Source: a virus
Taxonomy: Duplodnaviria; Heunggongvirae; Uroviricota; Caudoviricetes
IMG/VR virus record: IMGVR_UViG_3300044765_000092
Span: 158,679-222,678 of that record
Strand: one strand, 5' to 3'
Length of the DNA stretch: 64,000 bases
This document shows positions 3,107-42,953 of the stretch, in pieces. The position numbers and the translations under genes were made by a program. The notes beneath the pieces were generated by a model. That model made no database searches. It saw nothing but the letters and a program-made list of their open reading frames with translations, and was not told the DNA's origin. Within the stretch, counting starts at the first letter, position 1. Each line of letters begins with the position of its first letter.

Positions 3107-3304
3107 TCAGTAGAGAGTGCAACGATGCCTGGATTTCGGGAACAGCACGAGCTGCGTGACTGGAAAGTCCACCTCGGCTGCGTGGTTCTGCACAATCTGC
3201 CCGTTGATCAGAACGGCACCCTGCTTGAACCACTGCCGCAGTTCACCGTTCGAGCTTTCGTTGCATTTACCGGTCTTGGCGTCCTTAGGATTGCTCTTGC
3301 TCAT
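3107..3304 (-). CDS. hypothetical small protein
   Basis: ORF 3107..3331 with the MSKSNPKD start at 3302-3304. It fills the gap between the neighbouring genes. Confidence 0.35.
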   Translation of the reverse strand: MSKSNPKDAKTGKCNESSNGELRQWFKQGAVLINGQIVQNHAAEVDFPVTQLVLFPKSRHRCTLY

Positions 3305-3998
3305 AGGCAGAGCCGGACGTAGGCTGATCAAAAACTCCAGTGCTGTGATTCCCGTTTTCAGTTGTTTCTCCGGGTAGTTGAGGTAGTTGAGGTAGTTGAG
3401 GTAGTTGTGGCAGTTGGGGCAATTCAGGGTTGCTGTTCATTGCTCTTGTTTCTCCTGGTAGTTGTGTCAGGTTCTGTGTCTGGGCCGCGATGGCTGAGTT
3501 CAGTAGGTCGCACAGCCATTGAGAGTAGGCCAGTCTCTGTCCTTCACCAAAGTCACCAGAAACCCGTAGTCCAGCATCGTAGATGAAATCGTCGTCATCA
3601 ATGATTCCACCATCGGCAGACGGTTCAAACCTCAGAGGTCTGCTCCGCTGGTTGCTGGTATGAATGAGCGTGGCCTGCGCAATACTATCGGGCTGCGGAT
3701 ACGCATCCATACGAATGCGGTCGATGTGAGGACCCAAGATAGCAGCGATCTGCTTTTCGGTAGCTTGTGAGTGGATCCGGCCGCTCCTATCAACGCAGAC
3801 GACTAGCACGTCTGACTTCAGTCTGGGCACAGTCCGTAGCTTCTGCACGATGCGACGCGCTGTCCACCCTTCCCAATGTTCTTCTTTGTTGGGTGGTGGT
3901 TCGTCGTTGCACAGGATCTCGTACACCGCCTGAACTTGAGGATCTCGCCACGGAGGTAGAGGAAGCGACTGGTCGTTGTTGCTGTTGCTACTGCTCAT
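3285..3998 (-). CDS. hypothetical protein with an internal (PQL)n repeat
   Basis: 237-aa ORF. Its start overlaps the upstream stop (ATGA). It contains PQLPQLPQLPQLPQLP encoded by a 9-bp tandem repeat. Confidence 0.55.
   Translation of the reverse strand: MSSSNSNNDQSLPLPPWRDPQVQAVYEILCNDEPPPNKEEHWEGWTARRIVQKLRTVPRLKSDVLVVCVDRSGRIHSQATEKQIAAILGPHIDRIRMDAYPQPDSIAQATLIHTSNQRSRPLRFEPSADGGIIDDDDFIYDAGLRVSGDFGEGQRLAYSQWLCDLLNSAIAAQTQNLTQLPGETRAMNSNPELPQLPQLPQLPQLPQLPGETTENGNHSTGVFDQPTSGSAYEQEQS
3374..3418 (-). repeat. about five tandem copies of a 9-bp unit (GTAGTTGAG on plus), in-frame within CDS 3285..3998
   Basis: ggtagttgag gtagttgag gtagttgag gtagttgtg gcagttggg. Confidence 0.6.
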
Positions 3999-4462
3999 TG
4001 CTCTTGTTCCACCTTGATGTTGATCTCGGCCGTGACTTGCACTGGATTGATGGCCAGCACTTTGTATGGGTTGCGGCCACTTGTTGGTCCAACGATCATC
4101 CTGCGCACGCCTTCCTTGAGGCTATCTTCGGTGCGATATACACGCATGACCGCGTGCGAGCAGTAATCACCTTCAGCGTTTCGAAAATCGGCAAAGGTGA
4201 CGATCACAAAGCACTTTTCGTTTGGGATATCCTCCAAACGATCGATAGCATAGCCGTCTGAGGGAAGCAGGTTGGGCATTGTCGGTTCCTCAGCCTTTGG
4301 CTGAGTCTCAGTCTTGGTCTTGGTCGTGACCTTGGGCGTTGGCTTTGTGTTCGCACACGTTCTGCACAATTGGGGCAATGGGTACAGAGCTTCGTGGGCA
4401 AACGAAGAGTGCATGTATCGACCACATACGCCACAGTGGTAGTCGGGATTTCGATTGGTCAT
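3995..4462 (-). CDS. hypothetical protein with a Cys4 zinc-ribbon-like motif
   Basis: ORF 3995..4570. The probable start MTNRNPDYHCGVCG...CRTC is at 4460-4462. Confidence 0.45.
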   Translation of the reverse strand: MTNRNPDYHCGVCGRYMHSSFAHEALYPLPQLCRTCANTKPTPKVTTKTKTETQPKAEEPTMPNLLPSDGYAIDRLEDIPNEKCFVIVTFADFRNAEGDYCSHAVMRVYRTEDSLKEGVRRMIVGPTSGRNPYKVLAINPVQVTAEINIKVEQEQ

Positions 4463-4464
4463 TT

Positions 4465-4935
4465 CTACACTACTGATGACAATGTGAACGGAACAGGCTT
4501 GATCGGAACTATGGCGTCCACACGCCCGTTGTTCCCAAACACAATAGCCCACTTGCTGTTGGCCGGGCATGGGTGCTGTGGATCAGGCATAAATATCGCT
4601 GTGTAGTCACGGCACAGGTCGCGGAACTTATGAGCTCGAACCATATTGAGCTCGAACTTACGGGTCACGAGTTCCAGACCGCCTGACCGTAGTTCAACAA
4701 GAGTTAGGCGTGCGACCCCGGAACTATCGATCACCACATATCCACCTTTATAGGTGTTGTTTTCCTTGTTCAGCTCGCGGGTCTGCACGTTACTTTCGAC
4801 ATACTGCAAAACAGTCCCGCTCGCGTTAGGTTTGAGTTTGTAGTCGACGTTGTAGACCAGACGTCGGCCCGGTAGGAAGACTACTCGGGGTTCGATCTCG
4901 GTTGTACTGCTGCAGATGCTGGCTTCGGAAGTCAT
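4465..4935 (-). CDS. hypothetical protein
   Basis: ORF 4465..5205. The N-terminal 90 aa of that ORF are S/T/R-rich junk that overlaps CDS 4946..5233. The start MTSEASI is at 4933-4935. Confidence 0.45.
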   Translation of the reverse strand: MTSEASICSSTTEIEPRVVFLPGRRLVYNVDYKLKPNASGTVLQYVESNVQTRELNKENNTYKGGYVVIDSSGVARLTLVELRSGGLELVTRKFELNMVRAHKFRDLCRDYTAIFMPDPQHPCPANSKWAIVFGNNGRVDAIVPIKPVPFTLSSVV

Positions 4936-5798: not shown

Positions 5799-5808
5799 CT
5801 TCATTTAC
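5799..5808 (-). promoter_or_regulatory. conserved intergenic motif TCATTTACAG (gene-sense CTGTAAATGA), copy 1
   Basis: Overlaps the TGA stop of the AAA+ ATPase gene. It lies 55 nt upstream of the next start. Confidence 0.45.
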
Positions 5809-7093
5809 AGTTGTCGTCTACCGCAACACGAAAGCCGCGTCCGATCCGGACGCTGGACACCCCTGCAACCTTGGGCTTTGGCTTGTCGCTGGACGCTGTG
5901 TCGTCCCCAACACTGACCAAGGGCTTGGTATCGTACTCGATACTGTCGCCGCTTCGGAGCCCGTCATCCAGAATTCGCATACGAGCAACCGCATCTTCGA
6001 GTGATTCTTCGTCTTCTTCAGCCGATTGCGTATGGTCTGCTCCAGATTCTGGCTTGATCTGGATCATCTCGTCGTTCGAGCTTGACCGCGTTTGCAAAAA
6101 GCCTGGGCCACCGGCGTCGAAGTCGGCTGAAGATTTCTCTCGGGCGATCCAGTTGATGCGCTGGATTGCGGTGTCCAAGTCTTGCCCGAAGCATGACAGG
6201 AGCACAACCAATTCGCGCAAGTGAGCGATGGAGTACCCTTTGGTCTTGGCGATAGCAGTATCAAGATCGGCCCCTTGAAGTGAGGGAAGCTTCCACCGGA
6301 GATACTGTCGACGAGCGCCATCGCTGGGCATGCCGACACGTTGAATTGTGTCGAAGCGAGAAGGACGATTGGTAAATCGCTTGTCCAGCTTCTCGATGTA
6401 ATTGGTTGTGGCCAGAAACACGACCTTGTCAACTTGCGTCTCGCCGTCGAGTAGCGCAAGATACGCTGATTCGTCGTACCGATTGACCAGTGCATCGAAG
6501 TCTTCCATCAGCACCAGAATCAGTCGATGCGGCTCGATACGTCGGATCATGCGCAAGCACTCGGCACCCAGATTCGGATGCTCCAAGAACAATACGATGC
6601 CACCTCGGGCAATCACGTCTTGGACCAGAAGGTTGAGAGTACTGGTCTTGCCTGACCCCGGAGGCCCGTACAGAAGGATTCCACGTTTGTGCAAGAACCC
6701 ATGCTCTCGGAACTTGTTCTCCAGAGCCAGAAAGCGATCGACTTCGTTGAGCACCCAGCTCGACACGCAGTCTTCTAGCAGAAGAAGCGAATCGCTCTTG
6801 ATATCTACCTTTACCAAGTAGGTACCTAGAGCATCACTGTGACCGCACTTGTACAGAGCTGGTGGCAGTTCCTTGTAGGTCTCTTTGCTCGGCCAGTACA
6901 AACCGTTTGTCGAGCTCCACATCGAAGTGTGGTCCAGCGATCGCCCCCTGTTTGACGCCAGCTCGCTTAACTCAGCATGCGACGACGGAATAAGGGTGCT
7001 ATCTGATTCATGTCTTGCCATTTGTTTAACCCGTTCAGCTATGTCTGGAGGTGGAGGATCGCCGTTGATCAGGCTACCGATGTATCCTGGCAT
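5801..7093 (-). CDS. AAA+ ATPase (classical AAA clade)
   Basis: Walker A GPPGSGKTS, Walker B LVLMEDFD and second region of homology ...NRPSRFD. Confidence 0.8.
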   Translation of the reverse strand: MPGYIGSLINGDPPPPDIAERVKQMARHESDSTLIPSSHAELSELASNRGRSLDHTSMWSSTNGLYWPSKETYKELPPALYKCGHSDALGTYLVKVDIKSDSLLLLEDCVSSWVLNEVDRFLALENKFREHGFLHKRGILLYGPPGSGKTSTLNLLVQDVIARGGIVLFLEHPNLGAECLRMIRRIEPHRLILVLMEDFDALVNRYDESAYLALLDGETQVDKVVFLATTNYIEKLDKRFTNRPSRFDTIQRVGMPSDGARRQYLRWKLPSLQGADLDTAIAKTKGYSIAHLRELVVLLSCFGQDLDTAIQRINWIAREKSSADFDAGGPGFLQTRSSSNDEMIQIKPESGADHTQSAEEDEESLEDAVARMRILDDGLRSGDSIEYDTKPLVSVGDDTASSDKPKPKVAGVSSVRIGRGFRVAVDDNCK

Positions 7094-7390: not shown

Positions 7391-7466
7391 TGGTGGAAAG
7401 TAGTGGGATCGAACCACTGACCACCTCCTTATGAAGGAGGCGCTCTACCGACTGAGCTAACTTTCC
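7391..7466 (-). tRNA. tRNA with CAT anticodon (Met or lysidine-Ile)
   Basis: Hand-folded cloverleaf: GGAAAGT/ACTTTCC acceptor, D-arm GCTC-AGTCGGTA-GAGC, loop TTCATAA, T-arm TTCGATC, CCA encoded. Confidence 0.85.
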
Positions 7467-7470
7467 ACTG

Positions 7471-7546
7471 TGGTGGATCGTGACGGGCTCGAACCGCCGA
7501 CCTACGCCTTGTAAGGGCGCCGCTCTACCAACTGAGCTAACAATCC
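7471..7546 (-). tRNA. tRNA-Val (TAC)
   Basis: Acceptor GGATTGT/ACGATCC, anticodon loop CTTACAA, T-loop TTCGAGC, CCA encoded. Confidence 0.85.
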
Positions 7547-7549
7547 AAA

Positions 7550-7627
7550 TGGTCCGGGTGACAGGGATCGAACCTGCGACCTCATGCTCCCAAAGCACGC
7601 GCGCTACCAGACTGCGCTACACCCGGA
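7550..7627 (-). tRNA. tRNA-Pro (TGG)
   Basis: Acceptor CCGGGTG/CACCCGG, anticodon loop TTTGGGA, T-loop TTCGATC, CCA encoded. Confidence 0.8.
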
Positions 7628-9736: not shown

Positions 9737-9746
9737 TCATTTACAG
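9737..9746 (-). promoter_or_regulatory. TCATTTACAG motif, copy 2
   Basis: Overlaps the TAA stop of CDS 9741..10043. Confidence 0.45.
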
Positions 9747-11982: not shown

Positions 11983-13269
11983 TTAGTTTCCCTTGACGCA
12001 GAGCACGGCCTTGAGCGTGTGGACCACTTCGACCAGATCTGCCTGATTGGCCATCACCTGATCGATGTCCTTGTACGCCGATGGGATTTCGTCGAGCACC
12101 GATTCATCCTTGCGGCATTCGACACCTTGGGTCTGGGCCACGAGGTCGTCGACAGTGAACAGGCGCTTGGCCTCTTTCCGTCCGTGACGTCGGCCAGCTC
12201 CATGCGAACAACTGCAATACGACTCCGTATTGCCTTTGCCACGCACGATGTAAGACCGCTGGCCCATGGAACCCGGAATGATCCCCAGGTCGCCGGTGCG
12301 AGCACGGATCGCACCCTTGCGCGTCACCCACACGTTCTGGCCGAAGTGGCTCTCCTGCTCCACGTAGTTGTGGTGGCAGTTGATGGCTTCTTCGGTAGTC
12401 TGGAGATCTGGAAATGTACGCTTGAGCGCCGACAGCACGCGACGCATCATAAGATGCCGGTTGATCCAAGCGTAGTTTTGTGCCCAGGTCACGGCCGTCG
12501 TGTATTCCTTGAATTCCGGCGTGCCTTCCGGAAAGTACGCGAGGTCCTTGTCCGGCAGGTTGATGAACCATTTGGCAGCCAACGTCCGTGCCCGATCGAT
12601 GAACGACGTGCCGATCTTGTTGCCGATGCCACGCGAACCTGAGTGGAGCATCACCCATACGTTATGATTTTCGTCCAGGCACAGCTCGATGAAATGGTTG
12701 CCAGAACCCAGAGTCCCGAGTTGAGCCCAGGCATTGTCCACAGTCGTGTCTCCGACCACTGTCCCGATAAAGCCAAGATCGTCGGTCAGAATACGATTAA
12801 ACTCTCGCCGGGCGTCGACGACAGCTTCCTTGTTCTCGACGATCTCCTGTTCGCGCCGATGTGCACCACCAGGACCCAACGGTATGTCACGCTCGATCTG
12901 GTGGCGAATCGCGGTCAAGCTGTCCGGCAGCTGATCGGCCCGTAGATTGGTGCGAACCGCGTTCATCCCGCAGCCGATATCGACACCGACGGCCGCCGGT
13001 ATGATGGCCTTGACCGTGGGCACAACCGATCCGACGGTTGCACCGATCCCCAGGTGGACGTCAGGCATGAGCGCTACACCATTCGGATGAATGAACGGAA
13101 GCCGGGCGATGTTCTTGGCCTGTTGAAGAGCAGCGTCTTCGATGTCGAGGCCTTTGACCACGCGCTCGATCTCCGCGTCGAGTTCGTGGTTGATGTCCGT
13201 GACCACTTTGGTCGTTTCATTGACCCACGCCTTGATCGGCCGCGCGCCATGTTCGTGAATCACCTTCAT
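11983..13269 (-). CDS. rtcB: RtcB RNA 3'-phosphate/2',3'-cyclic-phosphate ligase
   Basis: MPDVHLGIGATVGSVVPT...AIIPAAVGVDIGCGMNAVRT...GTGNHFIE...HSGSRGIGN...INCHHNY...SCSHGAGR are near-identical to the E. coli RtcB motifs. Confidence 0.9.
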   Translation of the reverse strand: MKVIHEHGARPIKAWVNETTKVVTDINHELDAEIERVVKGLDIEDAALQQAKNIARLPFIHPNGVALMPDVHLGIGATVGSVVPTVKAIIPAAVGVDIGCGMNAVRTNLRADQLPDSLTAIRHQIERDIPLGPGGAHRREQEIVENKEAVVDARREFNRILTDDLGFIGTVVGDTTVDNAWAQLGTLGSGNHFIELCLDENHNVWVMLHSGSRGIGNKIGTSFIDRARTLAAKWFINLPDKDLAYFPEGTPEFKEYTTAVTWAQNYAWINRHLMMRRVLSALKRTFPDLQTTEEAINCHHNYVEQESHFGQNVWVTRKGAIRARTGDLGIIPGSMGQRSYIVRGKGNTESYCSCSHGAGRRHGRKEAKRLFTVDDLVAQTQGVECRKDESVLDEIPSAYKDIDQVMANQADLVEVVHTLKAVLCVKGN

Positions 13270-15618: not shown

Positions 15619-16206
15619 TCACTCACCGTGACTTTGAAGTGGCGGTGGATCATAATCCGAATCAGCCCATCCGTCTTCGACGTCCTTGACTTCATCGTCT
15701 GATGGCATCGGCTTTGGACACGGCTGCGAGGCCGCACGTAGAGCCTTGACTTCCTGAGCCAGGATATACATGGCGATGGTACCAAGCGAGAAGCAGTCAC
15801 GCACACCTTGGGTGTTGCTCGTCCACTCAGCTATCCTCTCCAGCGCCCAATCCACTGTGTATTCGTTTTCCGGTGCAGATGGGTGTTTCTTCTGTTGCAG
15901 TTGCGCCAGCGAAATGACACTCAGCTGATCGAAGAGCCGTGTGTTCTTACGCGAAAGCTCTTCTAGCTGACCCTGAAGGGTTCTGATCGTACATGCTGCG
16001 CATGGTTGCCCTTGCATCACAGCCTTGTGGTCCTTGCACAAGTTGTTTGCCAGGGAATTGGCCATCAATTGGCTTAGATACTGCAAATGAATCCGGTCAT
16101 CGGCATGAGTGTTCATCAGGTCGTTGATGAACTTATCAACCGCATCCGCGTCGTATACTCTAGCCCCATCTACGAACGATTGCTGAAAACGTCTACTCAG
16201 GTCCAT
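15619..16206 (-). CDS. hypothetical protein
   Basis: 195-aa ORF. Confidence 0.55.
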   Translation of the reverse strand: MDLSRRFQQSFVDGARVYDADAVDKFINDLMNTHADDRIHLQYLSQLMANSLANNLCKDHKAVMQGQPCAACTIRTLQGQLEELSRKNTRLFDQLSVISLAQLQQKKHPSAPENEYTVDWALERIAEWTSNTQGVRDCFSLGTIAMYILAQEVKALRAASQPCPKPMPSDDEVKDVEDGWADSDYDPPPLQSHGE

Positions 16207-16829
16207 TGGTTTGCTAAATATTTGCGGAGCTGGCTCTTGGCCTTGAGATCTGCACGGAGCATGCGTCGTGCCTCGGCTACTACAGCGAGGTTGAACTTGG
16301 CGTCAGCGACGGCCGTGTGCTGTTGTCCTGGGTGTTTGACATCCACACCCAGGAACTTTCTTAGAGTAGACACATCTCGTACGATCTTGTAATTCCAAGG
16401 TGCTTCTAGTCCACAGGACTCAAACAACGAGCCAAGTCGGGCCAGATCGAAGTCAGGATGATTACACCACAGTTCTTCAGCTTTGCTGAAGGCCTGAACG
16501 AGCGAATAATGGAGTTCTTCGACAGTTGAGGTGCCAGACGCGTAACCTAAGAATCGTTTGTTCCCGTGAGTACGTATCTGGAAGTCCAGCGTATTCTTGG
16601 TGTAAGAGCGGCCGAGCGCCAACTGCTCGGCTACCGACATGTAGTGCGTTTCCTCAAAGTCGATGCCGACGCTGAAGTCATCCGGGCTGATGTACTGACC
16701 GTATACACCCACTTCGTGGATAATGCAGTCGTACCTAAGAGAAAGGGTCTCGATATCGAGACCCACGATCTTGATTTCTTCCATGTTCTTGGACGTTGAG
16801 TGGAGCGGGAGTGCCGAGTCAAACGGCAC
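16197..16829 (-). CDS. DEDDh-family 3'-5' exonuclease (RNase T / DnaQ-like)
   Basis: Exo I IVGLDIET, Exo II NHPDFDLARL, Exo III HTAVADA. The start may be the internal MEEIKIV at 16784. Confidence 0.65.
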   Translation of the reverse strand: MPFDSALPLHSTSKNMEEIKIVGLDIETLSLRYDCIIHEVGVYGQYISPDDFSVGIDFEETHYMSVAEQLALGRSYTKNTLDFQIRTHGNKRFLGYASGTSTVEELHYSLVQAFSKAEELWCNHPDFDLARLGSLFESCGLEAPWNYKIVRDVSTLRKFLGVDVKHPGQQHTAVADAKFNLAVVAEARRMLRADLKAKSQLRKYLANQWT

Positions 16830-16902
16830 GCTTAGAGTGGCCGGATGTTAACCCGGGGCCATCCGGTCTCCTATAGGGTTCACACCCTCCCGCGTGAATA
16901 GT

Positions 16903-16990
16903 GGCCACGGCCGGGACTTGAACCCGGATTTTCGTCCCAAGGCTGTGCCCGGGGTCGACGTCCTATCCCTTAGACGACCACGACCTTTGT
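16903..16990 (-). ncRNA. tRNA-like elements that do not fold into one cloverleaf: a 5'-half-like piece and a T-arm piece
   Basis: 5'-half-like piece (gene sense): GGTCGTG-GT-CGTC-TAAGGGATAG-GACG. T-arm piece: CCGGG-TTCAAGT-CCCGG-CCGTGGC. The acceptor strands do not pair with each other. Confidence 0.3.
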
Positions 16991-17121
16991 TGATGCCATC
17001 GGCTTGCTTGAACACACAGGCTATGCGCTCAAGAAAGCCCCCGAGTTGGTCGTATCCAGTCCTCGTCGGGAGCATCTGCTCTAAATCTACACTGCCGTTT
17101 TAACAACGATCACGAATAAAA

Positions 17122-17214
17122 TGGCGCGCTCTACCGCTGAGCTACCCGCCCTTAGAATGCACAACGAAATGCACTGTGGAGGGCGGGACAGGATTTGAAC
17201 CTGTGGCCTAGCCA
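17122..17214 (-). tRNA. candidate circularly permuted tRNA gene
   Basis: Gene sense 17214->17177: TGGCT-AGGCC-ACAGG-TTCAAAT-CCTGT-CCCGCCC-T-CCA. Gene sense 17151->17122: GGGCGGG-TA-GCTC-AGCGGTA-GAGC-G-CGCCA. Acceptor strands pair 7/7 and anticodon-stem strands pair 4/5. The two halves are joined 3'-to-5' by a 25-nt linker. Confidence 0.45.
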
Positions 17215-17304
17215 TTTAGAGTATGGGTCGGAACTGTCAGAATTGAGAGCAGTCTTTGACAACGTATATCGGCAAAACTACAAGGAGCAACATCAGAGCT
17301 TTCA

Positions 17305-17398
17305 TCGGAATCGCTTCCGAGGCCATATCCAATTTGGCTTCCGTCGTGTGCATAACTCGTGCAGAACTATGCACACGACGGGCAGGACTCGAACCTGC
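17305..17398 (-). ncRNA. second permuted-tRNA-like element: T-arm and 3' acceptor strand, then a 26-nt TGCA-repeat linker, then the 5' acceptor strand and a D-arm-like hairpin
   Basis: GCAGG-TTCGAGT-CCTGC then CCGTCGT-G; linker TGCAtagttcTGCAcgagttaTGCA; then C-ACGACGG-AA-GCC-AAATTGGATAT-GGC. Acceptor pairs 7/7 and extends to an 11-bp helix. The anticodon region is non-canonical. Confidence 0.3.
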
Positions 17399-17448
17399 AA
17401 GCTCATATCACTACAACGATCACGGATAGCCGATAACTTTGTCGATGA

Positions 17449-17468
17449 GGCTGAGTCCTAGCTCAGCC
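17449..17468 (-). other. 7-bp hairpin GGCTGAG-ctagga-CTCAGCC immediately 3' of motif copy 4, at the head of the tRNA-like cluster
   Basis: Seen directly in the sequence. Confidence 0.4.
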
Positions 17469-17478
17469 CCTATGGGTG

Positions 17479-17488
17479 TCATTTACAG
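17479..17488 (-). promoter_or_regulatory. TCATTTACAG motif, copy 4
   Basis: 23 nt downstream of the stop of CDS 17511..18296. Directly upstream of the tRNA-like cluster. Confidence 0.45.
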
Positions 17489-17510: not shown

Positions 17511-18296
17511 TCAGCCTCGCACATTGGTCACGGTGCCGAACTGTTCCATGATCAGGTCGGCGATAGCGTTGCCGATCTTGGAGTCGATGGCCTCGATGTC
17601 GTTGGCGCGATTGCGTGCCTGATGGCAGGCCACGATCATCTCGTCCAGCAGCTCCAGAACCTTGGCCTTCTCGGCGGCCGAAACGGCGCCAGACCAGATC
17701 TTCGTGGTGAAGGTGCCGACCACCACATCCTTGCTGGCTTCCTTGACCTGCGCCGGATGCTTGTCGGTCGCCGGAGCCAAGACCACCGGAGTCATGACCT
17801 TCTCGGTCTTGCTCACATGGGTCTCGTCGGTGACCCACGCACCTTCGATGTTGTTGGAGTCCGGTTGCCACGACCTGGAGGCATCGAGCGTCGGCATAGT
17901 GGACAGCAACGCCCTGAGCTTGCCAAGGCGATTCTCCAGGCCCATCAGCTCGTCGACCGGGACACTGGTCGCCACAGTGTTGCCGCGTACCACCAGATCG
18001 GCCTTGGCGTTCTGGTTGCTGGCGTTCTTGCTGGCCATCACGTTCTCGGCCTTGGCCCAGAACTGCAGAAAGTAGTCGACGGTCAGCGGCACAGTGGTGC
18101 TCAGCTCTTTCTTGACCATCGCAGCCTTTTCCAGAGAATCGTTCTCCGGGCTCTCGGCCAGCATCTTGAGCGTCTTGGTCTCACCGCGGAAGTAGCTCTC
18201 CGCTTTGGAGAACTTGGTCCGGGTGTCGTCGGCCATCTGATTGGCGGTAGCAACCGCAGTCTTTTCAGCGGCCAGGAGTTCGTAGAGCTTTCCCAT
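17511..18296 (-). CDS. hypothetical protein
   Basis: ORF 17511..18443. The N-terminal 49 aa are Arg-rich junk. The probable start MGKLYELL is at 18294-18296. Confidence 0.55.
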   Translation of the reverse strand: MGKLYELLAAEKTAVATANQMADDTRTKFSKAESYFRGETKTLKMLAESPENDSLEKAAMVKKELSTTVPLTVDYFLQFWAKAENVMASKNASNQNAKADLVVRGNTVATSVPVDELMGLENRLGKLRALLSTMPTLDASRSWQPDSNNIEGAWVTDETHVSKTEKVMTPVVLAPATDKHPAQVKEASKDVVVGTFTTKIWSGAVSAAEKAKVLELLDEMIVACHQARNRANDIEAIDSKIGNAIADLIMEQFGTVTNVRG

Positions 18297-19640: not shown

Positions 19641-19650
19641 TCATTTACAG
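19641..19650 (-). promoter_or_regulatory. TCATTTACAG motif, copy 5
   Basis: 8 nt downstream of the TAA stop of CDS 19659..21446. Confidence 0.45.
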
Positions 19651-19658
19651 TTCGACTT

Positions 19659-21446
19659 TTAGTCCCAACGGTCGATCTTGATGCGGCGCTTGACCATCGA
19701 GCCGTCGTCGATGATAACGACCATCGGATGCGGCGATGGACCGTCGGAGAACATAAAGCCGCAGGCTGTGGCTTCAGCTGCACCGGTCGGAGACTTGGAG
19801 TTCGAGTGCGCCTCGATGGTCGAGCGTACTTCGTGCAACTCGGCGTGGAGGAAGTCCGGGAACAGTCCGAGACCCGTCTGACCACGTTCGGCCTGACGAT
19901 CGTACATACCGTCGAGGAAGAACGTCACCGACTTCTGATGTTGTGGGTACTCGTTCAGGTCGTCCCACATGTGAGGCGCGTAGGCAACGCCTGTCACATC
20001 GACCCAGCCTGGGCGGAGGTTCCAGATGTCAGGGGTTGACCCCTCGACATACACGTACCAAGACACCGGATTGCGGCACTCCGGCCGATCCCATTGGATA
20101 ATCGGTGGTGCGTCAGGATACACGGCAGTCATGAACGCAGTAAACGGCTGCCGGTTGTACGTGATTTCGACAGCGATTCGCTTGGCCTGCGGCAGAACCT
20201 GCGCCTGGAACCGCGCCCAGGTCATGTTCACCGTAGGCAAAAGCTCGGCAGTCTTTGGCTCGTTCTTCTGCTTGGACTTCAGGTGGCCGAACACACCGCC
20301 TTGGTACTCCGATTCCGGTTCCGGAATCGTAGGTGACCACAACATCTGTTGGATGTCTTCCAGACGTGCGAACCGCCGTTCGAGCGACGGTGCAAGGCCG
20401 AGCTTGGCGATCAACTCCTCAGCTCGCTTGATGTTGCCGTCAGTAGGCGCAGCCTGCGGCCGCTTGTACTTATCGGGAGCCACCTTTTGTTCGAATGACG
20501 CCTTGACCTGTGCGATTGGCACCCCGCTTTCCAGATCGGCGAGCAGTGAGCCAACGAGCGACGCTCGTGGATGGCAGAAACCTTCCGGGGCCGATGCCAC
20601 GGCTCGCCACAGGATGTTCCGGCGTTCACGCTGGGACTTCACTTGGTCCAACGTATACCGCAGGTCTGCCAGGAAGTTGATCGGGCCCGTCACCTTCTCG
20701 TTGCCACGGAGCACATCGCTTTCGATGATCGTCTTAGCCTTTTGGAGAAGTCCGGCGTCGAACTCAGACAGAGCCCGGCTCATCGTCTGGTAGCGGTGCT
20801 TGATGTTGGCGGCGGCCTGGAACGGCGTCTTGGTTTTCGACGAGAACACGAACCGATAGTGTGGCTTGACCGCAAAGTGCGTCCACACACCGGTCTTCGC
20901 CGTACCCCACATCTTGTGGTCGGTCTTGAACACGTCGCTGATTTCGCACTTCGGGATCAGGCGTTCGAACGCTGCGGCCACCGGCTTGTAGTGATCAGGC
21001 GCGTCGTACTCAGACCACAGAGCCGACTTCAGCTGACCGTTTGGCAACACGATCGCCAGTGATCCATAGCTGTTGATGAACTTGCGGCACTCGCTGCACG
21101 TATGGTACTGACGCCACTCGATCGGAAACGTCGACAGGTAGTAGTCGTAGAGAGTAGGCGCACCCTGCACACCGTCGGCGGTCAATCCGCGGGGGTCGGT
21201 CATACCTCCGGGCCGAACACCCATCTGATGGAGGATGGGGCCGACGTTGGCGACAAACAGATTGTCCTGCGTTGCGGTCGTCGTGTCGAATCGGCGTTGG
21301 AGCCGGAGCATGTACTCGTTGAATTCGGCTTGACGCTCGGCATTTGGTGCCGAGGTATGGACGTGAGCAGCCGTAACTGATGCTGCTGCTGCGGCGGCAG
21401 AGATGGTCGAAGCCTTGGTGTTTGTACTGCTAGCAGTTCTGGACAT
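19659..21446 (-). CDS. hypothetical protein (595 aa)
   Basis: Long ORF. The internal 255-aa and 163-aa plus-strand ORFs are antisense artefacts. Confidence 0.6.
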   Translation of the reverse strand: MSRTASSTNTKASTISAAAAAASVTAAHVHTSAPNAERQAEFNEYMLRLQRRFDTTTATQDNLFVANVGPILHQMGVRPGGMTDPRGLTADGVQGAPTLYDYYLSTFPIEWRQYHTCSECRKFINSYGSLAIVLPNGQLKSALWSEYDAPDHYKPVAAAFERLIPKCEISDVFKTDHKMWGTAKTGVWTHFAVKPHYRFVFSSKTKTPFQAAANIKHRYQTMSRALSEFDAGLLQKAKTIIESDVLRGNEKVTGPINFLADLRYTLDQVKSQRERRNILWRAVASAPEGFCHPRASLVGSLLADLESGVPIAQVKASFEQKVAPDKYKRPQAAPTDGNIKRAEELIAKLGLAPSLERRFARLEDIQQMLWSPTIPEPESEYQGGVFGHLKSKQKNEPKTAELLPTVNMTWARFQAQVLPQAKRIAVEITYNRQPFTAFMTAVYPDAPPIIQWDRPECRNPVSWYVYVEGSTPDIWNLRPGWVDVTGVAYAPHMWDDLNEYPQHQKSVTFFLDGMYDRQAERGQTGLGLFPDFLHAELHEVRSTIEAHSNSKSPTGAAEATACGFMFSDGPSPHPMVVIIDDGSMVKRRIKIDRWD

Positions 21447-21525: not shown

Positions 21526-21535
21526 TCATTTACAG
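21526..21535 (-). promoter_or_regulatory. TCATTTACAG motif, copy 6
   Basis: 47 nt downstream of the stop of CDS 21582..22466. Followed in gene sense by AGGGTAGCG...CGCTACCCCT, an 8-bp inverted repeat. Confidence 0.45.
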
Positions 21536-24520: not shown

Positions 24521-24530
24521 TCATTTACAG
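24521..24530 (-). promoter_or_regulatory. TCATTTACAG motif, copy 7
   Basis: 20 nt downstream of the stop of CDS 24550..24966. Followed in gene sense by GGGTAG, as in copy 6. Confidence 0.45.
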
Positions 24531-31538: not shown

Positions 31539-32456
31539 TTACTGTCGCGGAGTCGGACTGCCGTATTGCTTGCCCACGTCGAGAAACGGGACTGGAGCAC
31601 CTGCGTAGATGGCAGTCGGAAGCTGACCGTTCCAGTTCTTGGCTTTCTGCATCTCGACCTCGATGCGGCGCAGTTCCAGCACATCGCGATTCTGCGCCAG
31701 TGCCGCGTTCTGGATCTTGAGTGCTTCTGCCTCGGCTTCTGCCTTCTTGGTGATGGCGTATGCAGCACCGTCGGCTTGAGCTTTGGTGGCGTTGGCTTCG
31801 GCCTCTGCGGTCACGACCTTGGCACGCTGCTGAGCCTCAACGGTCTTGACCTGGTTTTCGGCCGCGAGTCGCAACTGCTCTTGCGTGACCTTCTGGTTGA
31901 TGGCCTGCATGTAGCTGTCGCTGAAGCTAAAGTTGCGCATGTCGATGTTGATGACATGCGCGCCGTAGATGCCGAGCTTGGTCTGCAGTGCTGAATTGAT
32001 GTCGCTCGACACCCGCGCTCGTTGGGCAATCAGGTCAGGTGCTGTGTACTTGGCGGTCACTGCCTTGAACACTTCCTGAGTAGCGGTCTGCACGTAGCTC
32101 GAGAGGTCACCGTTGTGCGTGTACTTTTCGTAGACCTCGGCCACGCGGTCAGGCGAGATGTTGTAGCGGACGGTCATGCTCACCTTCACGGGTTGCTGGT
32201 CTGAGGTCGAGCCCTCCGCGTCGTTGATATCGGCCTGTTCGGACCGAATGCTAAACAGCGTCAGGTTCTTCCACGGAGGCAGAACCACAAGGCCCTCGGG
32301 TTCGATCCCTTTGATGGCCCCGAATTGGGTGATCACGCCACGCGCGCCAGTGGGCACCGATCGGAACGGCCACAGAGACACGATGGTCACCAGCAAGATG
32401 ATGCCGGCGATCACCGCGCCGACAGCCATCCCAAACATCTTTTCTTTACGATCCAT
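31539..32456 (-). CDS. SPFH/band-7 (prohibitin/HflC-like) membrane protein
   Basis: N-terminal transmembrane helix, band-7 core (...VITQFGAI...), then a long Ala/Glu/Gln coiled coil. Confidence 0.7.
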   Translation of the reverse strand: MDRKEKMFGMAVGAVIAGIILLVTIVSLWPFRSVPTGARGVITQFGAIKGIEPEGLVVLPPWKNLTLFSIRSEQADINDAEGSTSDQQPVKVSMTVRYNISPDRVAEVYEKYTHNGDLSSYVQTATQEVFKAVTAKYTAPDLIAQRARVSSDINSALQTKLGIYGAHVINIDMRNFSFSDSYMQAINQKVTQEQLRLAAENQVKTVEAQQRAKVVTAEAEANATKAQADGAAYAITKKAEAEAEALKIQNAALAQNRDVLELRRIEVEMQKAKNWNGQLPTAIYAGAPVPFLDVGKQYGSPTPRQ

Positions 32457-39009: not shown

Positions 39010-39019
39010 TCATTTACAG
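39010..39019 (-). promoter_or_regulatory. TCATTTACAG motif, copy 8
   Basis: Directly 3' of the stop of CDS 39014..40084. Confidence 0.45.
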
Positions 39020-40084
39020 TATGAACTTGTCGGCAGGCAGCACAGGCGGGCCGCCGAGTTTGCGTGTCCACAGCTGAAGCGCGATCTCAAGCATTGTCGA
39101 TCGGCTTTGATCAATACCCTTCTCGATTTCGTCGTCCTTAAGTTCAATGGAGAAGGCCTCTTCGTAGGCCATTACCAATTCGACGGTATCAAGTGAATCT
39201 GCCCCAAGGTCGCGAACTGTCTTGTTCCAGCCTTGGGCTACAAAGTCAGCCTGTTGAAGACCGAGTTGATCGCAGGTCGTTCGAATAAACTTTTCTTTGA
39301 AGGCGCTGAGACTGATGGTCCAGACCTGGTCCCCAACCTTGTAGCTGGCAGTTTGCAACCAGAAGGCTAATCCCTCGTTGGGGACCACTTTAATCTCGGT
39401 TGTCTTTGCTGTTTTTGCCGCCTTTGGCTTATAGACCGTGTCCTCATCGTCATCATCGTCATCATCGGGATCAGCTGACTTCTTGGGCGGCGTCGACCGC
39501 GGCGCAACACCCCGAGGCGGTCTGTACTTGTTGGTTGGCGCTTCGGTTCGTTCGATAAAAGGATTGTCGTGTACCAGTGGTTCGCCGCCCCACACCCGTT
39601 CGATCTGCTTGTTGATCCAGCGAATTGCCTCTTGTGGATGCCAGTTGCCAAGAACGTGGTTGCAGATGCCGAGAACGTACCATTTGTAGTACGAGCTCGG
39701 AACAAAGCCGACTAGGCTAGGACCGGCGGTGTGCAAGATCCCGTAACCGTCGAGTGCGCAATAGGATCGGCCCTGAACACCGATCCTGAGGTCCAAACCG
39801 CCCTGACCAGCCAACGGCCCCTGAACGACTTGACCCAAGTGAGTGACGATCGGCACTTCGGTCCTCGACCTAGGCCACTGCCGGTCGGCCGGTCGCCCAT
39901 GATCGTAGGCGATGAGGGCAACCATGTCATCGTATCGAAGAGACAGGGGGTTGGCATCCGTCGGTGGTTCGAGCAGCAGGAACATTGGGTTCTTTGCCGC
40001 CTGGTCATAGACACTAGTCCCGGTCCCTACCCTCGTCCGGTCTTGGATGGGCAACAGGTATTGGAAGTTGTTCATTTCTTTCAC
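39014..40084 (-). CDS. fusion protein: unknown N-terminal domain, poly-Asp linker and a C-terminal acyl carrier protein (phosphopantetheine-binding) domain
   Basis: C-terminal [30 protein letters not shown] is nearly identical to E. coli ACP helix II ([30 protein letters not shown]), including the DSL serine. Confidence 0.7.
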   Translation of the reverse strand: [356 protein letters not shown]

Positions 40085-41058: not shown

Positions 41059-41068
41059 TCATTTACAG
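41059..41068 (-). promoter_or_regulatory. TCATTTACAG motif, copy 9
   Basis: 52 nt upstream of the first leftward gene, at the edge of the divergent switch region. Confidence 0.45.
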
Positions 41069-41864: not shown

Positions 41865-42953
41865 ATGGAACAGTACAAACGACACGATCGGTTGGATGTG
41901 GTGTGTGCTATCCAACACGGATCTCACCTGTACGGAACAGCAAACGAACATTCGGACTACGACTTCAAATGCGTGTATCTGCCGTCGTTGCGGCAAACCA
42001 CGTTCAGCGTACGATCTCCGGGAGTGCGCCGCATCCGCTACGACAAAGACGGAAACACTGTTGGCGACCGCGAGGCGTTGAACGCAGGTGGTTCGGAGAG
42101 CGAGCATTTCACTGTCACTGATTTCGTAGCCGGCTTCTGCGCCGGACAGGCATGGGCGTTCGAGTTCTTGTTTGCAGTTCTGCAGAACAGGATGATCGAT
42201 CTACGGCACGACAGTATCGGGACTAACAGTCGCCGCGAGACTTGCAGTCAACTGTTCTACGAACTGTGTCATGTCCTGGCTGACAATCCGCATCGCAATG
42301 TGCAACCGATGCTCGGGTTTGCGGTTAAGCAAACGATGGACTACGTGCATCGTGGTGAACGGCTTGCGGTCGCACGTCGAGTTGCCGATGCGGTATACGG
42401 AGCGTGGGTTATTTGTGGGCTGGAGCCGAAATTACGGCTCGACTCAATGCTACCCGACCAGCAACTGACTGTCTTGGACCACATTGCGAATACGGCTCGC
42501 GTGGAAATCGGGCGCTCAACCAATGGTGGTCGCGAATTTCGCACACTGATTGTCAATGGTCGGGAGTATTTGGAAACTATGCCGTTGCGCGAGTTCCATC
42601 GGTCGATCAGCGCGTTGATCGAATCATACGGTGCTCGATCCATACGGGCTGAACAGGACGGTGTTGACTGGAAGTCGTTGAGTCACGCTGTTCGTGTGTA
42701 TGATCAGATTGTGGAGTACCTGGACCGCGGAACAATGGTGTTCCCACGCCCGAATCCGGTTCATTTGCTTGCCATCAAGAACGGGGAGCTGCCACTGGAG
42801 TTCGTCAAGCAGCGGATCACGTCCCTGGAACTTTGTGTCAATTCAATGCTCATGGACTCCAAGTTGCCAGACCCCACACCTGAGTGGATCCAGCATGTGT
42901 TTGATCAGTGCTGGCCTCTGGTCCGCACCATGTATCAGGTGACCGACCAATGA
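41865..42953 (+). CDS. Pol-beta-superfamily nucleotidyltransferase-fold protein
   Basis: N-terminal HGSHLYGTANEHSDYDF matches the GS-x9-SDxD NTase signature. Strong GGAGG RBS. 362 aa. Confidence 0.5.
   Translation: MEQYKRHDRLDVVCAIQHGSHLYGTANEHSDYDFKCVYLPSLRQTTFSVRSPGVRRIRYDKDGNTVGDREALNAGGSESEHFTVTDFVAGFCAGQAWAFEFLFAVLQNRMIDLRHDSIGTNSRRETCSQLFYELCHVLADNPHRNVQPMLGFAVKQTMDYVHRGERLAVARRVADAVYGAWVICGLEPKLRLDSMLPDQQLTVLDHIANTARVEIGRSTNGGREFRTLIVNGREYLETMPLREFHRSISALIESYGARSIRAEQDGVDWKSLSHAVRVYDQIVEYLDRGTMVFPRPNPVHLLAIKNGELPLEFVKQRITSLELCVNSMLMDSKLPDPTPEWIQHVFDQCWPLVRTMYQVTDQ

What the first reader, a model, noticed from the sequence alone, without database searches (positions are those of the whole stretch)
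16830..17480. Compact tRNA-like cluster with further split or permuted-looking elements downstream of a motif/hairpin transcription start
Between CDS 17511..18296 and the exonuclease gene lies a 650-bp stretch with no credible ORF. In gene sense it begins with motif copy 4 (CTGTAAATGA, 17488->17479) and a 7-bp hairpin. It is packed with tRNA parts.

Second permuted-looking element (17398->17305):
- T-arm GCAGG-TTCGAGT-CCTGC, then 3' acceptor strand CCGTCGT and discriminator G.
- A 26-nt linker TGCAtagttcTGCAcgagttaTGCA.
- A 5' acceptor strand ACGACGG, pairing 7/7 and extending to an 11-bp helix through the TGCA repeats, and a D-arm-like GCC-AAATTGGATAT-GGC.
- This has the same 3'-half / hairpin-linker / 5'-half order as the 17122-17214 element, with a similar linker length. 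Its anticodon region is non-canonical (TCGGA-agcgat-TCCGA, a 6-nt loop).

Further downstream (16990->16903):
- A clean 5'-half-like piece GGTCGTG-GT-CGTC-TAAGGGATAG-GACG.
- A T-arm CCGGG-TTCAAGT-CCCGG with 3' strand CCGTGGC.
- Their acceptor strands do not pair with each other, so these look like orphan halves.

Two independent instances of the same inverted half order, each with a hairpin linker, argue against a one-off deletion artefact. The whole block looks like a single transcription unit of unconventional tRNA precursors.
Basis: partly seen in the sequence, partly recalled or inferred. Interest (0 to 1): 0.7.

Follow-up and report, generated by a model that had tools for sequence, protein, structure and literature searches.

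The report
tRNA-shaped noncoding RNAs beside DUF7873
The two "inside-out tRNAs" are real, but they are not split tRNA genes: they are tRNA-shaped noncoding RNAs of the bacterial Y-RNA (YrlA) type that always sit just after one uncharacterised gene (DUF7873) in many phages and hundreds of bacterial species, mostly without the Ro60 protein that normally partners such RNAs.

Summary
Two elements on the minus strand (cores 17398->17322 and 17204->17128) have T arm, closed acceptor helix and D arm in permuted order. Shuffled windows give 0.01 such hits; the window has 2.

They are not tRNA precursors. Rfam matches both only to YrlA (Y RNA-like), below threshold. Covariance models built without the window score them at 81.9 and 61.8 bits. 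About 92% of 152 loci that encode a homologue of the upstream gene (Pfam DUF7873) carry one or two such RNAs directly downstream on the same strand. These loci come from phages and from Streptomyces, Nostoc, Sorangium and other bacteria.

All helices covary, and the tRNA 15:48 tertiary pair covaries (p = 2e-37). No anticodon loop is conserved; element 2 has a GNRA-capped hairpin in that position.

No Ro60 gene lies nearby, and complete genomes of related phages lack one.

The flanks carry 6-nt-periodic UAUCGU-type repeats.

The third "orphan halves" piece is one contiguous, degenerate cloverleaf with an 8-bp acceptor. It is not conserved in relatives.

Best reading: Y-RNA-like tRNA mimics in a conserved module with DUF7873. 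Their function is unknown.

The parts
17511..18296 (-). DUF7873 gene (261 aa). It is the conserved upstream partner of the RNAs.
   Evidence: Pfam PF25283, E = 1.2e-66. The family has 2,232 clusters at 50% identity, all stand-alone proteins of about 250 aa. No match to a solved or viral fold.
17479..17488 (-). Promoter-like phage motif CTGTAAATGA, 23 nt after the DUF7873 stop codon.
   Evidence: 9 exact copies, all on the minus strand and mostly intergenic or at gene ends. 13 matches at <=1 mismatch against 2.5 expected. Relatives have AGTAAATAA in the same place.
17449..17468 (-). 7-bp hairpin, GGCUGAG-cuagga-CUCAGCC.
   Evidence: Read directly from the sequence. Its function was not tested.
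17258..17443 (-). Element 2, a 'type A' tRNA-like RNA.
- Outer stem: GACAA.GUUAUCGGC / GCCGAUAUACGUUGUC.
- Internal loop holding the CGUGAUCGUUGU repeat.
- Middle stem: AGUGAUAU-GAGCUU / AAGCUC-ug-AUGUUGCU.
- tRNA-like head: T arm 17398-17382; closed 18-bp acceptor hairpin; class-II-like D arm 17338-17322; GNRA-capped hairpin 17320-17305.
   Evidence: Folds: (z = -4.07). Type-A model R2, built without the window: 61.8 bits, E = 1.4e-11 at 17406->17316. Rfam YrlA: 33.6 bits. A15:U48 pair present.
17101..17239 (-). Element 1, a 'type B' tRNA-like RNA.
- Outer pairs UGACAG/UUGUUA, CGA/UCG and CAU/GUG.
- Closing stem AAAUGGC/GCCAUUU at the anticodon-stem position.
- Variable loop UAGGCC.
- T arm 17204-17188.
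- Acceptor CCCGCCC + U + CCA, hairpin linker, GGGCGGG.
- D arm GCUCAGCGGUAGAGC, ending at 17128.
- 3' flank with CGUGAUCGUUGU (17114-17103).
   Evidence: Fold: (z = -2.92). Type-B model R1, built without the window: 81.9 bits, E = 5e-18 at 17216->17120. Rfam YrlA: 35.3 bits. G15:C48 pair and U8 present.
16902..16985 (-). Third element: a contiguous, degenerate tRNA-like cloverleaf.
- 8-bp acceptor GGUCGUGG/CCGUGGCC.
- D arm CGUCU-aagggaua-GGACG.
- Irregular arm with a 3-nt loop where the anticodon arm should be.
- T arm CCGGG-UUCAAGU-CCCGG.
- Discriminator A.
   Evidence: Fold: (z = -1.3, not significant). Not called by ARAGORN or the Rfam tRNA model. Only a weak mascRNA-like match, 24.1 bits. 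Relatives L171, L172 and L006 have no third T loop in the same gap. Its status is uncertain.

Best explanation
The region encodes two noncoding RNAs that fold into a tRNA-like L-shaped head. The head has a T arm, a D arm and an acceptor helix closed by a hairpin, so there is no free tRNA end. It sits on a long imperfect stem formed by the RNA's own 5' and 3' ends. This is the architecture of bacterial YrlA-type Y RNAs, which are tRNA mimics.

The two RNAs are paralogous types.
- Type A comes first. It has a class-II-like D arm, and the outer stem leaves at the variable-arm position.
- Type B comes second. It has the D arm GCUCAGYGGUAGAGC, and the outer stem leaves at the anticodon-stem position.

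Together with the upstream gene DUF7873 they form a conserved two- or three-gene module found in many phages and in hundreds of bacterial species, usually with no Ro60 gene nearby.

Inferred, not shown:
- The RNAs are transcribed with, or just after, DUF7873 from the phage motif.
- They are trimmed out of the transcript.
- They act as a ribonucleoprotein or adaptor. The tRNA-like head would engage enzymes that recognise tRNA, and the stem with its 6-nt repeats would bind an oligomeric protein, for which DUF7873 is the obvious candidate.
- In many phage type-B copies, including element 1, an encoded NCCA follows the 3' acceptor strand. This suggests RNase P cleavage and a CCA end, as shown for Mycobacterium smegmatis YrlA.
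For: Identity:
- Rfam matches both elements full length to YrlA only (35.3 and 33.6 bits, E about 1e-5).
- A genuine Ro60-adjacent phage YrlA (ScottMcG) also scores only 36 bits in Rfam, and 51.5 bits with my model R1.
- Models built without the window hit element 1 at 81.9 bits and element 2 at 61.8 bits. No other true hits occur in the 64 kb.

Structure:
- Type B alignment: 94.4% of cells paired against 59% in shuffles and 39-48% in slid controls. All 21 pairs show compensatory changes.
- Type A alignment: 94.7% against 64%. This includes the extension helix, which the descriptor did not require.
- The closing stem averages 5.1 bp against 2.6 in controls, with tRNA spacing.
- Levitt pair: G15 goes with C48 in 58/59 cases and A15 with U48 in 130/143 (Fisher p = 2e-37). 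U8 is present in 202/208.

Linkage to DUF7873:
- Descriptor hits: 224 on the gene strand against 1 on the other strand.
- 67 of 72 viral loci and 75 of 80 bacterial loci carry an RNA directly downstream.
- Other neighbours are not conserved.
- In an unbiased pattern scan, 4 of 8 permuted elements had DUF7873 upstream, against 0 of 89 tandem-tRNA junctions.

Not a decoding tRNA: no conserved anticodon loop, and tetraloop caps in type A.

No Ro60:
- None among the window ORFs tested.
- None within +-10 kb on the window's own contig.
- None within +-6 kb in 80 bacterial loci.
- TROVE phages and DUF7873 phages barely overlap. No Ralstonia, Klebsiella, Serratia, Rhizobium or Arthrobacter phage has a TROVE hit.

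Repeats and NCCA:
- UAUCGU is 22-fold enriched in the flanks, and CGU-CGU spacing of exactly 6 nt occurs 23 times against 2.6 expected.
- Bacterial flanks form 6-nt-periodic duplexes.
- NCCA follows the acceptor strand in 49/66 phage type-B elements; chance is 1/64.
Against: - Both Rfam scores are below the family's gathering score of 69.
- The GNCGAAN0-1G motif thought to contact Ro60 is at background frequency (4/90 against about 5.8 expected) and is absent from both window elements.
- No Ro60 gene is nearby, so strict YrlA membership fails.
- Binding to DUF7873 is inferred from gene order alone.
- DUF7873 is mildly acidic (pI 5.6; family median 6.0). It has no recognisable RNA-binding or enzymatic fold.
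- Expression and processing of the RNAs were not observed.
- Only 64 kb of a 238-kb genome could be searched for Ro60.
- NCCA is much rarer in bacterial copies (28/113), so a CCA end is not a general feature.
- Three of 8 permuted elements from the unbiased scan had neither DUF7873 nor Ro60 in the available flank.
Confidence: 0.75

Rival explanations
1. Circularly permuted tRNA genes. The transcript would be cut at both ends and circularised or ligated, for example by the phage RtcB, to close an anticodon loop. It would then be opened at the acceptor by RNase P and 3' trimming to give a working tRNA. For element 1 this would be an amber suppressor with anticodon CUA.
For: - The 3'-half / linker / 5'-half order is real.
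- Element 1 has an encoded UCCA after the acceptor strand, and CUCUAAA sits just 5' of the closing stem. That reads as a canonical anticodon loop (C32 U33 CUA A37 A38).
- RtcB is encoded 4 kb away.
- A few related elements (L069, L071, L080, L082) also show CU-NNN-RN at that place.
Against: - Across 64 type-B elements, position 33 is U in only 18, and no anticodon-loop signature is conserved.
- The would-be loop bases pair into the extended stem (AAA/UUU in element 1).
- The junction is a symmetric internal loop, not a bulge-helix-bulge.
- Type A has a GNRA or UUCG hairpin, or nothing, at the anticodon position.
- Most bacterial copies close the acceptor with a 6-8-nt loop and lack NCCA.
- RtcB is not a conserved neighbour.
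- No splicing endonuclease was seen among the ORFs tested.
Confidence: 0.04
2. Ordinary Ro60-bound Y RNAs. The RNAs would bind a Ro60/Rsr protein encoded elsewhere in the 238-kb phage genome or by the host, and DUF7873 would be an accessory or unrelated neighbour.
For: - The tRNA-like core is shared with Ro60-adjacent phage YrlAs (ScottMcG; L205).
- Some hosts of DUF7873 phages are known to have Rsr and YrlA. Rhizobium etli is an example (PMC4201824).
- Some jumbo phages do carry TROVE proteins (PMC7824862).
- Only 64 kb of the genome was visible.
Against: - Complete genomes of phiRSL1, the Klebsiella/Serratia jumbo phages and the Rhizobium RHph phages have DUF7873 plus the RNAs but no TROVE hit.
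- No TROVE lies within +-6 kb in 80 bacterial loci.
- The Ro-contact motif GNCGAAN0-1G is absent.
- The conserved linkage is to DUF7873, not to Ro60.
Confidence: 0.12
3. Cis-acting 3'-UTR elements. The tRNA-like structures would serve only to define and protect the 3' end of the DUF7873 mRNA. This resembles MALAT1/mascRNA processing, or tRNA-punctuated operons. The released RNA would have no role of its own.
For: - The elements are always immediately 3' of DUF7873 and co-oriented with it.
- The gene often sits inside tRNA arrays, where tRNA-processing enzymes would cut the transcript.
- DUF7873 is acidic and has no RNA-binding signature.
Against: - Two distinct paralogous RNA types are kept in tandem across phyla.
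- Tertiary tRNA pairs (15:48, U8) and long 6-nt-periodic outer stems are conserved. This is more than an exonuclease block would need.
- A promoter-like motif lies between the gene and the RNAs in this phage lineage.
Confidence: 0.08
4. Decayed or rearranged tRNA genes, tandem-tRNA junctions or chance matches with no function.
For: - tRNA arrays are common in these phages.
- Junctions of adjacent tRNAs do mimic the pattern (window 7434-7589).
- The third element looks degenerate.
Against: - The acceptor strands of each element pair 7/7 with each other, which junctions do not do.
- Shuffles give 0.01 hits per window.
- There is strong covariation across more than 140 loci.
- Neither flank holds a complete tRNA.
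Confidence: 0.01

Closest known systems
YrlA (Y RNA-like A; Rfam RF02553): bacterial and mycobacteriophage Y RNAs bound by Ro60/Rsr (Chen et al. 2014, PMC4201824; Wang et al. 2018, bioRxiv 10.1101/312249)
   Same: - Near-invariant T arm and D arm, with a closed 'acceptor' stem-loop between them.
- RNA ends that pair into a stem at the anticodon-stem position.
- tRNA tertiary pairs, including 15:48 covariation.
- Often two RNAs in tandem next to a protein gene.
- Found in phages.
   Different: - No Ro60 gene nearby, and none in complete related phage genomes.
- The GNCGAAN0-1G motif is absent.
- The conserved neighbour is DUF7873.
- The flanks carry 6-nt-periodic UAUCGU/UCNNNN repeats.
- There is a second type (A) whose stem leaves at the variable-arm position and whose D arm is class-II-like.
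- Rfam scores are half the gathering score.
Mycobacterium smegmatis YrlA processing (RNase P cleavage plus CCA addition, giving two halves that stay bound)
   Same: A 7-bp acceptor stem. Element 1 and 74% of phage type-B elements have N-CCA right after the 3' acceptor strand, often followed by a short A/U-rich linker. This is the layout of an RNase P substrate.
   Different: Here the CCA is encoded, not added. Cleavage was not tested. Type A and most bacterial copies lack NCCA.
Circularly permuted tRNA genes of Cyanidioschyzon merolae and other algae, and of Thermofilum (from my own knowledge; compare PMC4238349, listed)
   Same: The 3' half lies upstream of the 5' half, joined by a linker that closes the acceptor stem.
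   Different: Those genes rebuild a normal anticodon loop through a bulge-helix-bulge junction, a splicing endonuclease and a ligase, and they yield decoding tRNAs. Here no anticodon loop and no BHB junction is conserved.
Two-piece (permuted) tmRNA of alpha- and beta-proteobacteria and cyanobacteria
   Same: Order T arm, 3' acceptor strand, CCA, intervening segment, 5' acceptor strand. This explains the partial beta_tmRNA matches.
   Different: The elements have a full canonical D arm and no tag reading frame or pseudoknots. ARAGORN finds no tmRNA, and the Rfam score is 26.9 against a threshold of 84.
mascRNA/MALAT1-type tRNA-like 3'-end elements
   Same: A tRNA-like fold directly 3' of a gene, possibly used by tRNA-processing enzymes. 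The third element gives a weak mascRNA match.
   Different: That is a eukaryotic system with an open acceptor and no closed hairpin. The match is only 24 bits against a threshold of 42.5.

Membership tests
YrlA / bacterial Y RNA (Rfam RF02553; Chen et al. 2014) | tRNA-like domain: conserved T and D stem-loops with a third (acceptor-like) stem-loop between them, and RNA ends pairing at the anticodon-stem position | tested here: met
   Full-length alignment to the YrlA model (positions 1-114) for both elements.
YrlA / bacterial Y RNA (Rfam RF02553; Chen et al. 2014) | tRNA tertiary interactions, including compensatory G15:C48 / A15:U48 | tested here: met
   G15-C48 in 58/59 and A15-U48 in 130/143, p = 2e-37. 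Element 1 has G15:C48 and element 2 has A15:U48.
YrlA / bacterial Y RNA (Rfam RF02553; Chen et al. 2014) | Score at or above Rfam's gathering threshold (69 bits) | tested here: not met
   35.3 and 33.6 bits. A Ro60-adjacent mycobacteriophage YrlA also reaches only 36.1 bits, so this threshold is a weak discriminator for phage copies.
YrlA / bacterial Y RNA (Rfam RF02553; Chen et al. 2014) | GNCGAAN0-1G motif near the 5' end (proposed Ro60 contact) | tested here: not met
   Absent upstream of both window elements. Found in 4/90 elements against about 5.8 expected by chance.
YrlA / bacterial Y RNA (Rfam RF02553; Chen et al. 2014) | Encoded within about 4 kb of a Ro60/Rsr (TROVE) gene | tested here: not met
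   No TROVE among 20 window ORFs of 210 aa or more, including all those over 350 aa on the coding strands. None within +-10 kb on the window's own contig. None in 80 bacterial loci within +-6 kb. The rest of the 238-kb genome could not be read.
YrlA / bacterial Y RNA (Rfam RF02553; Chen et al. 2014) | Physical binding to Ro60/Rsr | not testable with these tools
   Needs immunoprecipitation.
Circularly permuted tRNA gene | 3' half upstream of the 5' half, with the acceptor strands complementary | tested here: met
Circularly permuted tRNA gene | The ends rebuild a 5-bp anticodon stem with a 7-nt loop (U33, R37) | tested here: not met
   Element 1 alone could give CUCUAAA, but across 64 homologues U33 occurs in only 18 and no signature is conserved. 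Element 2 has a GNRA-capped hairpin instead.
Circularly permuted tRNA gene | Bulge-helix-bulge junction and a splicing endonuclease | tested here: inconclusive
   The folds show symmetric internal loops, not BHB. No endonuclease family was found among the ORFs scanned, but not every ORF was scanned.
Standard tRNA | Detected by ARAGORN or by the Rfam tRNA model, with an anticodon | tested here: not met
   nothing in 16830-17480. The third element is also not called.
Two-piece tmRNA | Tag reading frame, pseudoknots and a tmRNA-type D-loop analogue | tested here: not met
   ARAGORN finds no tmRNA. Only a partial beta_tmRNA match over the T arm and acceptor (26.9 bits against 84).
DUF7873-linked tRNA-like RNAs (class defined here) | Significant match to models R1 (type B) or R2 (type A), both built without the window | tested here: met
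   81.9 bits, E = 5e-18. 61.8 bits, E = 1.4e-11.
DUF7873-linked tRNA-like RNAs (class defined here) | Directly downstream of a DUF7873 gene and co-oriented with it, in the order type A then type B | tested here: met
   phiRSL1, L006, L171 and L172 show the same order.

The most novel reading that the evidence does not exclude
DUF7873 and its one or two tandem tRNA-shaped RNAs may be a previously undescribed, Ro60-independent ribonucleoprotein module. It is spread across phages and at least 575 bacterial species, and the protein family has 2,232 clusters at 50% identity.

In this reading, DUF7873 would be the missing partner for a Y-RNA-like tRNA mimic. It might coat the 6-nt-periodic stem as an oligomer, while the tRNA-like head (with a CCA end in phage copies) recruits or decoys tRNA-recognising enzymes during infection.
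Probability: 0.45. Interest if true: 0.85.

Novelty: new variant of a known kind. Interest (0 to 1): 0.68.

Why it matters
Y RNAs are defined by their partner protein, Ro60. The YrlA subclass showed that bacteria and phages build tRNA look-alikes, but what the tRNA-like head is for remains unknown.

This work finds the same tRNA-mimic core tightly linked to a different, uncharacterised protein family in both phages and free-living bacteria, mostly where no Ro60 gene is present. It makes three things possible:
- It gives a concrete candidate partner to test.
- It offers tractable organisms: phiRSL1 with Ralstonia, Streptomyces, and Anabaena.
- It provides family-specific models for annotating RNAs that current tools miss or could misread as broken tRNAs.

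It also warns annotators that 'split tRNA halves' next to DUF7873 are functional RNAs, not pseudogenes.

Tried and rejected
- Megablast of the region against phage genomes found nothing. Relatives had to be reached through the protein.
- Gordonia phage Boopy's Ro60 locus served as a control. Its upstream gene is not DUF7873, and Rfam found no YrlA there.
- Anticodon or amber-suppressor reading of element 1: rejected on family-wide statistics.
- Conserved neighbours other than DUF7873 (RtcB, Rv2179c-like exonuclease, DUF8224): not conserved.
- The Ro-contact motif regex also missed the ScottMcG control by one base, so that negative result is softer than it looks.
- Literature searches for DUF7873, for permuted tRNA in phages and for YrlA found no description of this module. 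The 2020 Ro60 review could not be read.
Full report
**What is in the sequence**

All features lie on the minus strand, between the stop codon of CDS 17511..18296 and the exonuclease gene. Two elements show tRNA parts in permuted order.

- Element 2 has a T arm (GCAGG-TTCGAGT-CCTGC) at 17398->17382. Then come the 3' acceptor strand CCGTCGT, a hairpin linker, the 5' acceptor strand ACGACGG, AA, and a D arm (GCC-AAATTGGATAT-GGC) ending at 17322.
- Element 1 has a T arm (ACAGG-TTCAAAT-CCTGT) at 17204->17188. Then come CCCGCCC-T-CCA, a hairpin linker, and GGGCGGG-TA-GCTCAGCGGTAGAGC ending at 17128.

ARAGORN and Rfam at gathering thresholds call six ordinary tRNAs elsewhere in the window and none here. 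I wrote a strict descriptor: a 5-bp T stem with a TTCRA loop, an adjacent 7-nt strand that pairs 7/7 with a strand 3-90 nt downstream, then 2 nt and a D arm containing GG. It finds exactly these two sites in 64 kb. 300 dinucleotide shuffles give a mean of 0.01.

- The '6-nt anticodon loop' of element 2 is a 6-bp stem with a GNRA tetraloop, UCGGAA-GCGA-UUCCGA.
- The downstream 'orphan halves' are one contiguous cloverleaf (16985->16902). One register further on, GGUCGUGG pairs with CCGUGGCC over 8 bp, three of them G-U. The anticodon arm is aberrant and the fold energy is not significant (z = -1.3). No tRNA model accepts it. The closest relatives have no counterpart. I treat it as a degenerate tRNA-like element of uncertain status.
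These make the RNAs about 186 nt (17443->17258) and about 139 nt (17239->17101) long.

**What they resemble**

With relaxed thresholds, Rfam aligns both elements end to end to a single family, YrlA (Y RNA-like), at 35.3 and 33.6 bits (E about 1e-5). That is below the gathering score of 69. The only other hits are partial tmRNA matches over the T arm and acceptor.

YrlA RNAs are bacterial and mycobacteriophage Y RNAs. Their effector domain mimics tRNA: conserved T and D arms, a closed 'acceptor' stem-loop between them, and the RNA's ends pairing where the anticodon stem would be (PMC4201824; bioRxiv 10.1101/312249). That is exactly the 'permuted' order seen here.

**The conserved partner is DUF7873, not Ro60**

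The upstream gene is Pfam DUF7873 (E = 1e-66). Its nearest cultured homologue is ORF270 of Ralstonia jumbo phage phiRSL1, at about 50% identity. phiRSL1 has the same two elements in the same order directly after ORF270. So do Klebsiella phage KpLz-2_45, Rhizobium phages RHph_Y65 and TM16, Vibrio phage D505 and Gordonia phage GodonK.

I collected 80 IMG/VR loci and 80 bacterial loci through the protein. At least 575 species genomes matched, including Streptomyces, Actinomadura, Actinoplanes, Nostoc/Anabaena, Sorangium, Planctomycetota and Chloroflexia.

- The descriptor gives 224 hits on the DUF7873 strand and 1 on the opposite strand.
- 67 of 72 non-redundant viral loci and 75 of 80 bacterial loci carry one or two elements within a few hundred bases downstream of the gene.
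- Nothing else in the neighbourhood is conserved. In bacteria the flanking genes are unrelated housekeeping genes.
- The protein family is large (2,232 clusters at 50% identity), always about 250 aa, and never fused to another domain.

**Membership of the window elements in this class**

I built two covariance models from other loci only. R1 uses 12 type-B elements and R2 uses 18 type-A elements.

- R1 scores element 1 at 81.9 bits (E = 5e-18).
- R2 scores element 2 at 61.8 bits (E = 1.4e-11).
- The only other sizeable R1 hits in the window are junctions between adjacent ordinary tRNAs. Their acceptor strands do not pair.

**Structure is under selection**

- On 80 aligned type-B hits, 94.4% of cells are paired, against 59% in shuffles and 39-48% when partners are slid. 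All 21 pairs show double changes.
- Type A gives 94.7% against 64%. This includes a 7-bp extension of the acceptor helix that my descriptor never required.
- The closing stem, also not in the descriptor, averages 5.1 bp against 2.6 for mismatched flanks. It keeps tRNA geometry: one nucleotide after the D arm, and a 4-5-nt variable loop.
- The nucleotide before the T stem covaries with the second D-loop base as the tRNA Levitt pair does. G15 goes with C48 in 58/59 and A15 with U48 in 130/143 (p = 2e-37). U8 is present in 202/208.
- Element 1 has G15:C48 and element 2 has A15:U48.

These RNAs therefore fold as tRNA-like L shapes.

**Why they are not tRNA precursors**

Element 1 could in principle yield the anticodon loop CUCUAAA if its ends were ligated, and RtcB is encoded 4 kb away. 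Several findings argue against this.

- Across 64 homologues the corresponding seven bases show no U33/R37 signature. U33 occurs in 18 of 64.
- The bases in question pair into the extended stem.
- The junction is a symmetric internal loop, not a bulge-helix-bulge.
- Type A carries a GCGA- or UUCG-capped hairpin, or nothing, at the anticodon position.
- Bacterial copies close the acceptor with a 6-8-nt loop.
- RtcB is not a conserved neighbour.

**Why they are not ordinary YrlA either**

- No TROVE/Ro60 protein is found among the window ORFs tested, within +-10 kb on the window's own contig, or within +-6 kb in 80 bacterial loci.
- A Ro60 probe, validated against Pfam, finds 358 phage records. 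Almost all are actinophages. None is from Ralstonia, Klebsiella, Serratia, Rhizobium or Arthrobacter, and those groups hold many of the 75 DUF7873 phage records.
- The GNCGAAN0-1G motif proposed to contact Ro60 occurs at background frequency and is absent here.
- The core is nonetheless shared. A Ro60-adjacent YrlA in mycobacteriophage ScottMcG scores 51.5 bits with R1 and only 36 bits in Rfam.
- In an unbiased pattern scan of viral contigs, 8 permuted elements turned up among 124 matches. Four had DUF7873 upstream, one had Ro60 downstream and three had neither. None of 89 tandem-tRNA junctions had DUF7873.

**Extra features**

- The flanks are enriched 22-fold for UAUCGU. CGU-CGU spacing of exactly 6 nt occurs 23 times against 2.6 expected. 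The window's 12-mer is two such units.
- In bacteria the flanks form long imperfect duplexes with a 6-nt period, (GCUGAA)n opposite CUCAGA-CUCUCG-CUCCAG. This suggests an oligomeric binder.
- In phage type-B elements an N-CCA follows the 3' acceptor strand in 49/66 cases, including element 1. In bacteria the figure is 28/113. M. smegmatis YrlA is cut by RNase P and gains CCA, so similar processing is plausible here but unproven.

**The protein**

DUF7873 gave a fair AlphaFold model (pLDDT 77.8). It has no significant structural or sequence relative in PDB, BFVD, PADLOC or NCBIfam. It is mildly acidic, with pI 5.6. That does not favour simple electrostatic RNA binding. Its role rests on gene order alone.

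**Transcription**

CTGTAAATGA occurs 9 times exactly, always on the minus strand and mostly between genes. phiRSL1-like relatives have AGTAAATAA just upstream of their type-A element.

**Verdict**

Elements 1 and 2 are Y-RNA-like tRNA mimics. They belong to a widespread DUF7873-linked class that the literature available to me does not describe. The identity and the genomic linkage are well supported. The mechanism (a ribonucleoprotein with DUF7873, possible RNase P/CCA processing, engagement of tRNA-recognising enzymes) is inference.

Noticed in passing
window 5801-5810, 9737-9746, 17479-17488, 19641-19650, 21526-21535, 24521-24530, 39010-39019, 41059-41068 (all minus strand): The motif CTGTAAATGA recurs 9 times exactly, mostly between genes. 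13 matches at <=1 mismatch against 2.5 expected. It is probably the promoter-type motif of this phage lineage. Relatives show AGTAAATAA.
   Followed up: partly
L001:10608-10730 (phiRSL1); L008:4796-4929; L016:4670-4791; L012:6439-6559 and 6569-6691: tRNA-shaped genes with normal acceptor, D and T arms but a 50-62-nt insert in the anticodon arm. They are not annotated and ARAGORN does not call them. The L008, L016 and L012 inserts share GAUUAUC(C/G) near their 3' end. They could be introns or another kind of tRNA mimic.
   Followed up: no
window 11983-13269 (-), 16197-16784 (-), 41865-42953 (+): RNA-repair-type genes. RtcB ligase (Pfam E = 3e-131). An Rv2179c-like 3'-5' exoribonuclease directly downstream of the RNA cluster. 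A weak N-terminal RlaP (RNA-repair nucleotidyltransferase) match. None of these is a conserved neighbour of DUF7873 elsewhere.
   Followed up: partly
window 7434-7589 (-): Junctions between the adjacent tRNA-Met, tRNA-Val and tRNA-Pro genes score up to 47 bits with the permuted-element model. This is a reminder that tandem tRNAs are the main false positive for YrlA-type searches.
   Followed up: yes
L171:~4390-4620 and L172:~4385-4585: In two close relatives the acceptor hairpin of the type-A RNA carries a structured expansion of about 150-190 nt. This arm can therefore accept large insertions.
   Followed up: no
DUF7873 model (window 17511-18296): Weak, non-significant Foldseek rows to Cas7/Csm3/RAMP proteins recur in two libraries (E = 0.01-0.1, TM about 0.1). 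Combined with the 6-nt period of the RNA flanks, this is only a hint.
   Followed up: partly
L205:2731-2800 with a TROVE gene at 3228-4898: A Ro60-adjacent viral YrlA also has N-CCA plus a short linker after the 3' acceptor strand. Encoded CCA is therefore not specific to the DUF7873-linked class.
   Followed up: no
window 19659-21446 (-), 39014-40084 (-), 31539-32456 (-), 56387-58321 (+): Other gene content: a 595-aa DUF8224 protein, a protein with a phosphopantetheine-binding domain, an SPFH/Band 7 protein and a tail sheath protein. This fits a phiRSL1-like jumbo myovirus; the source contig is 238 kb.
   Followed up: no
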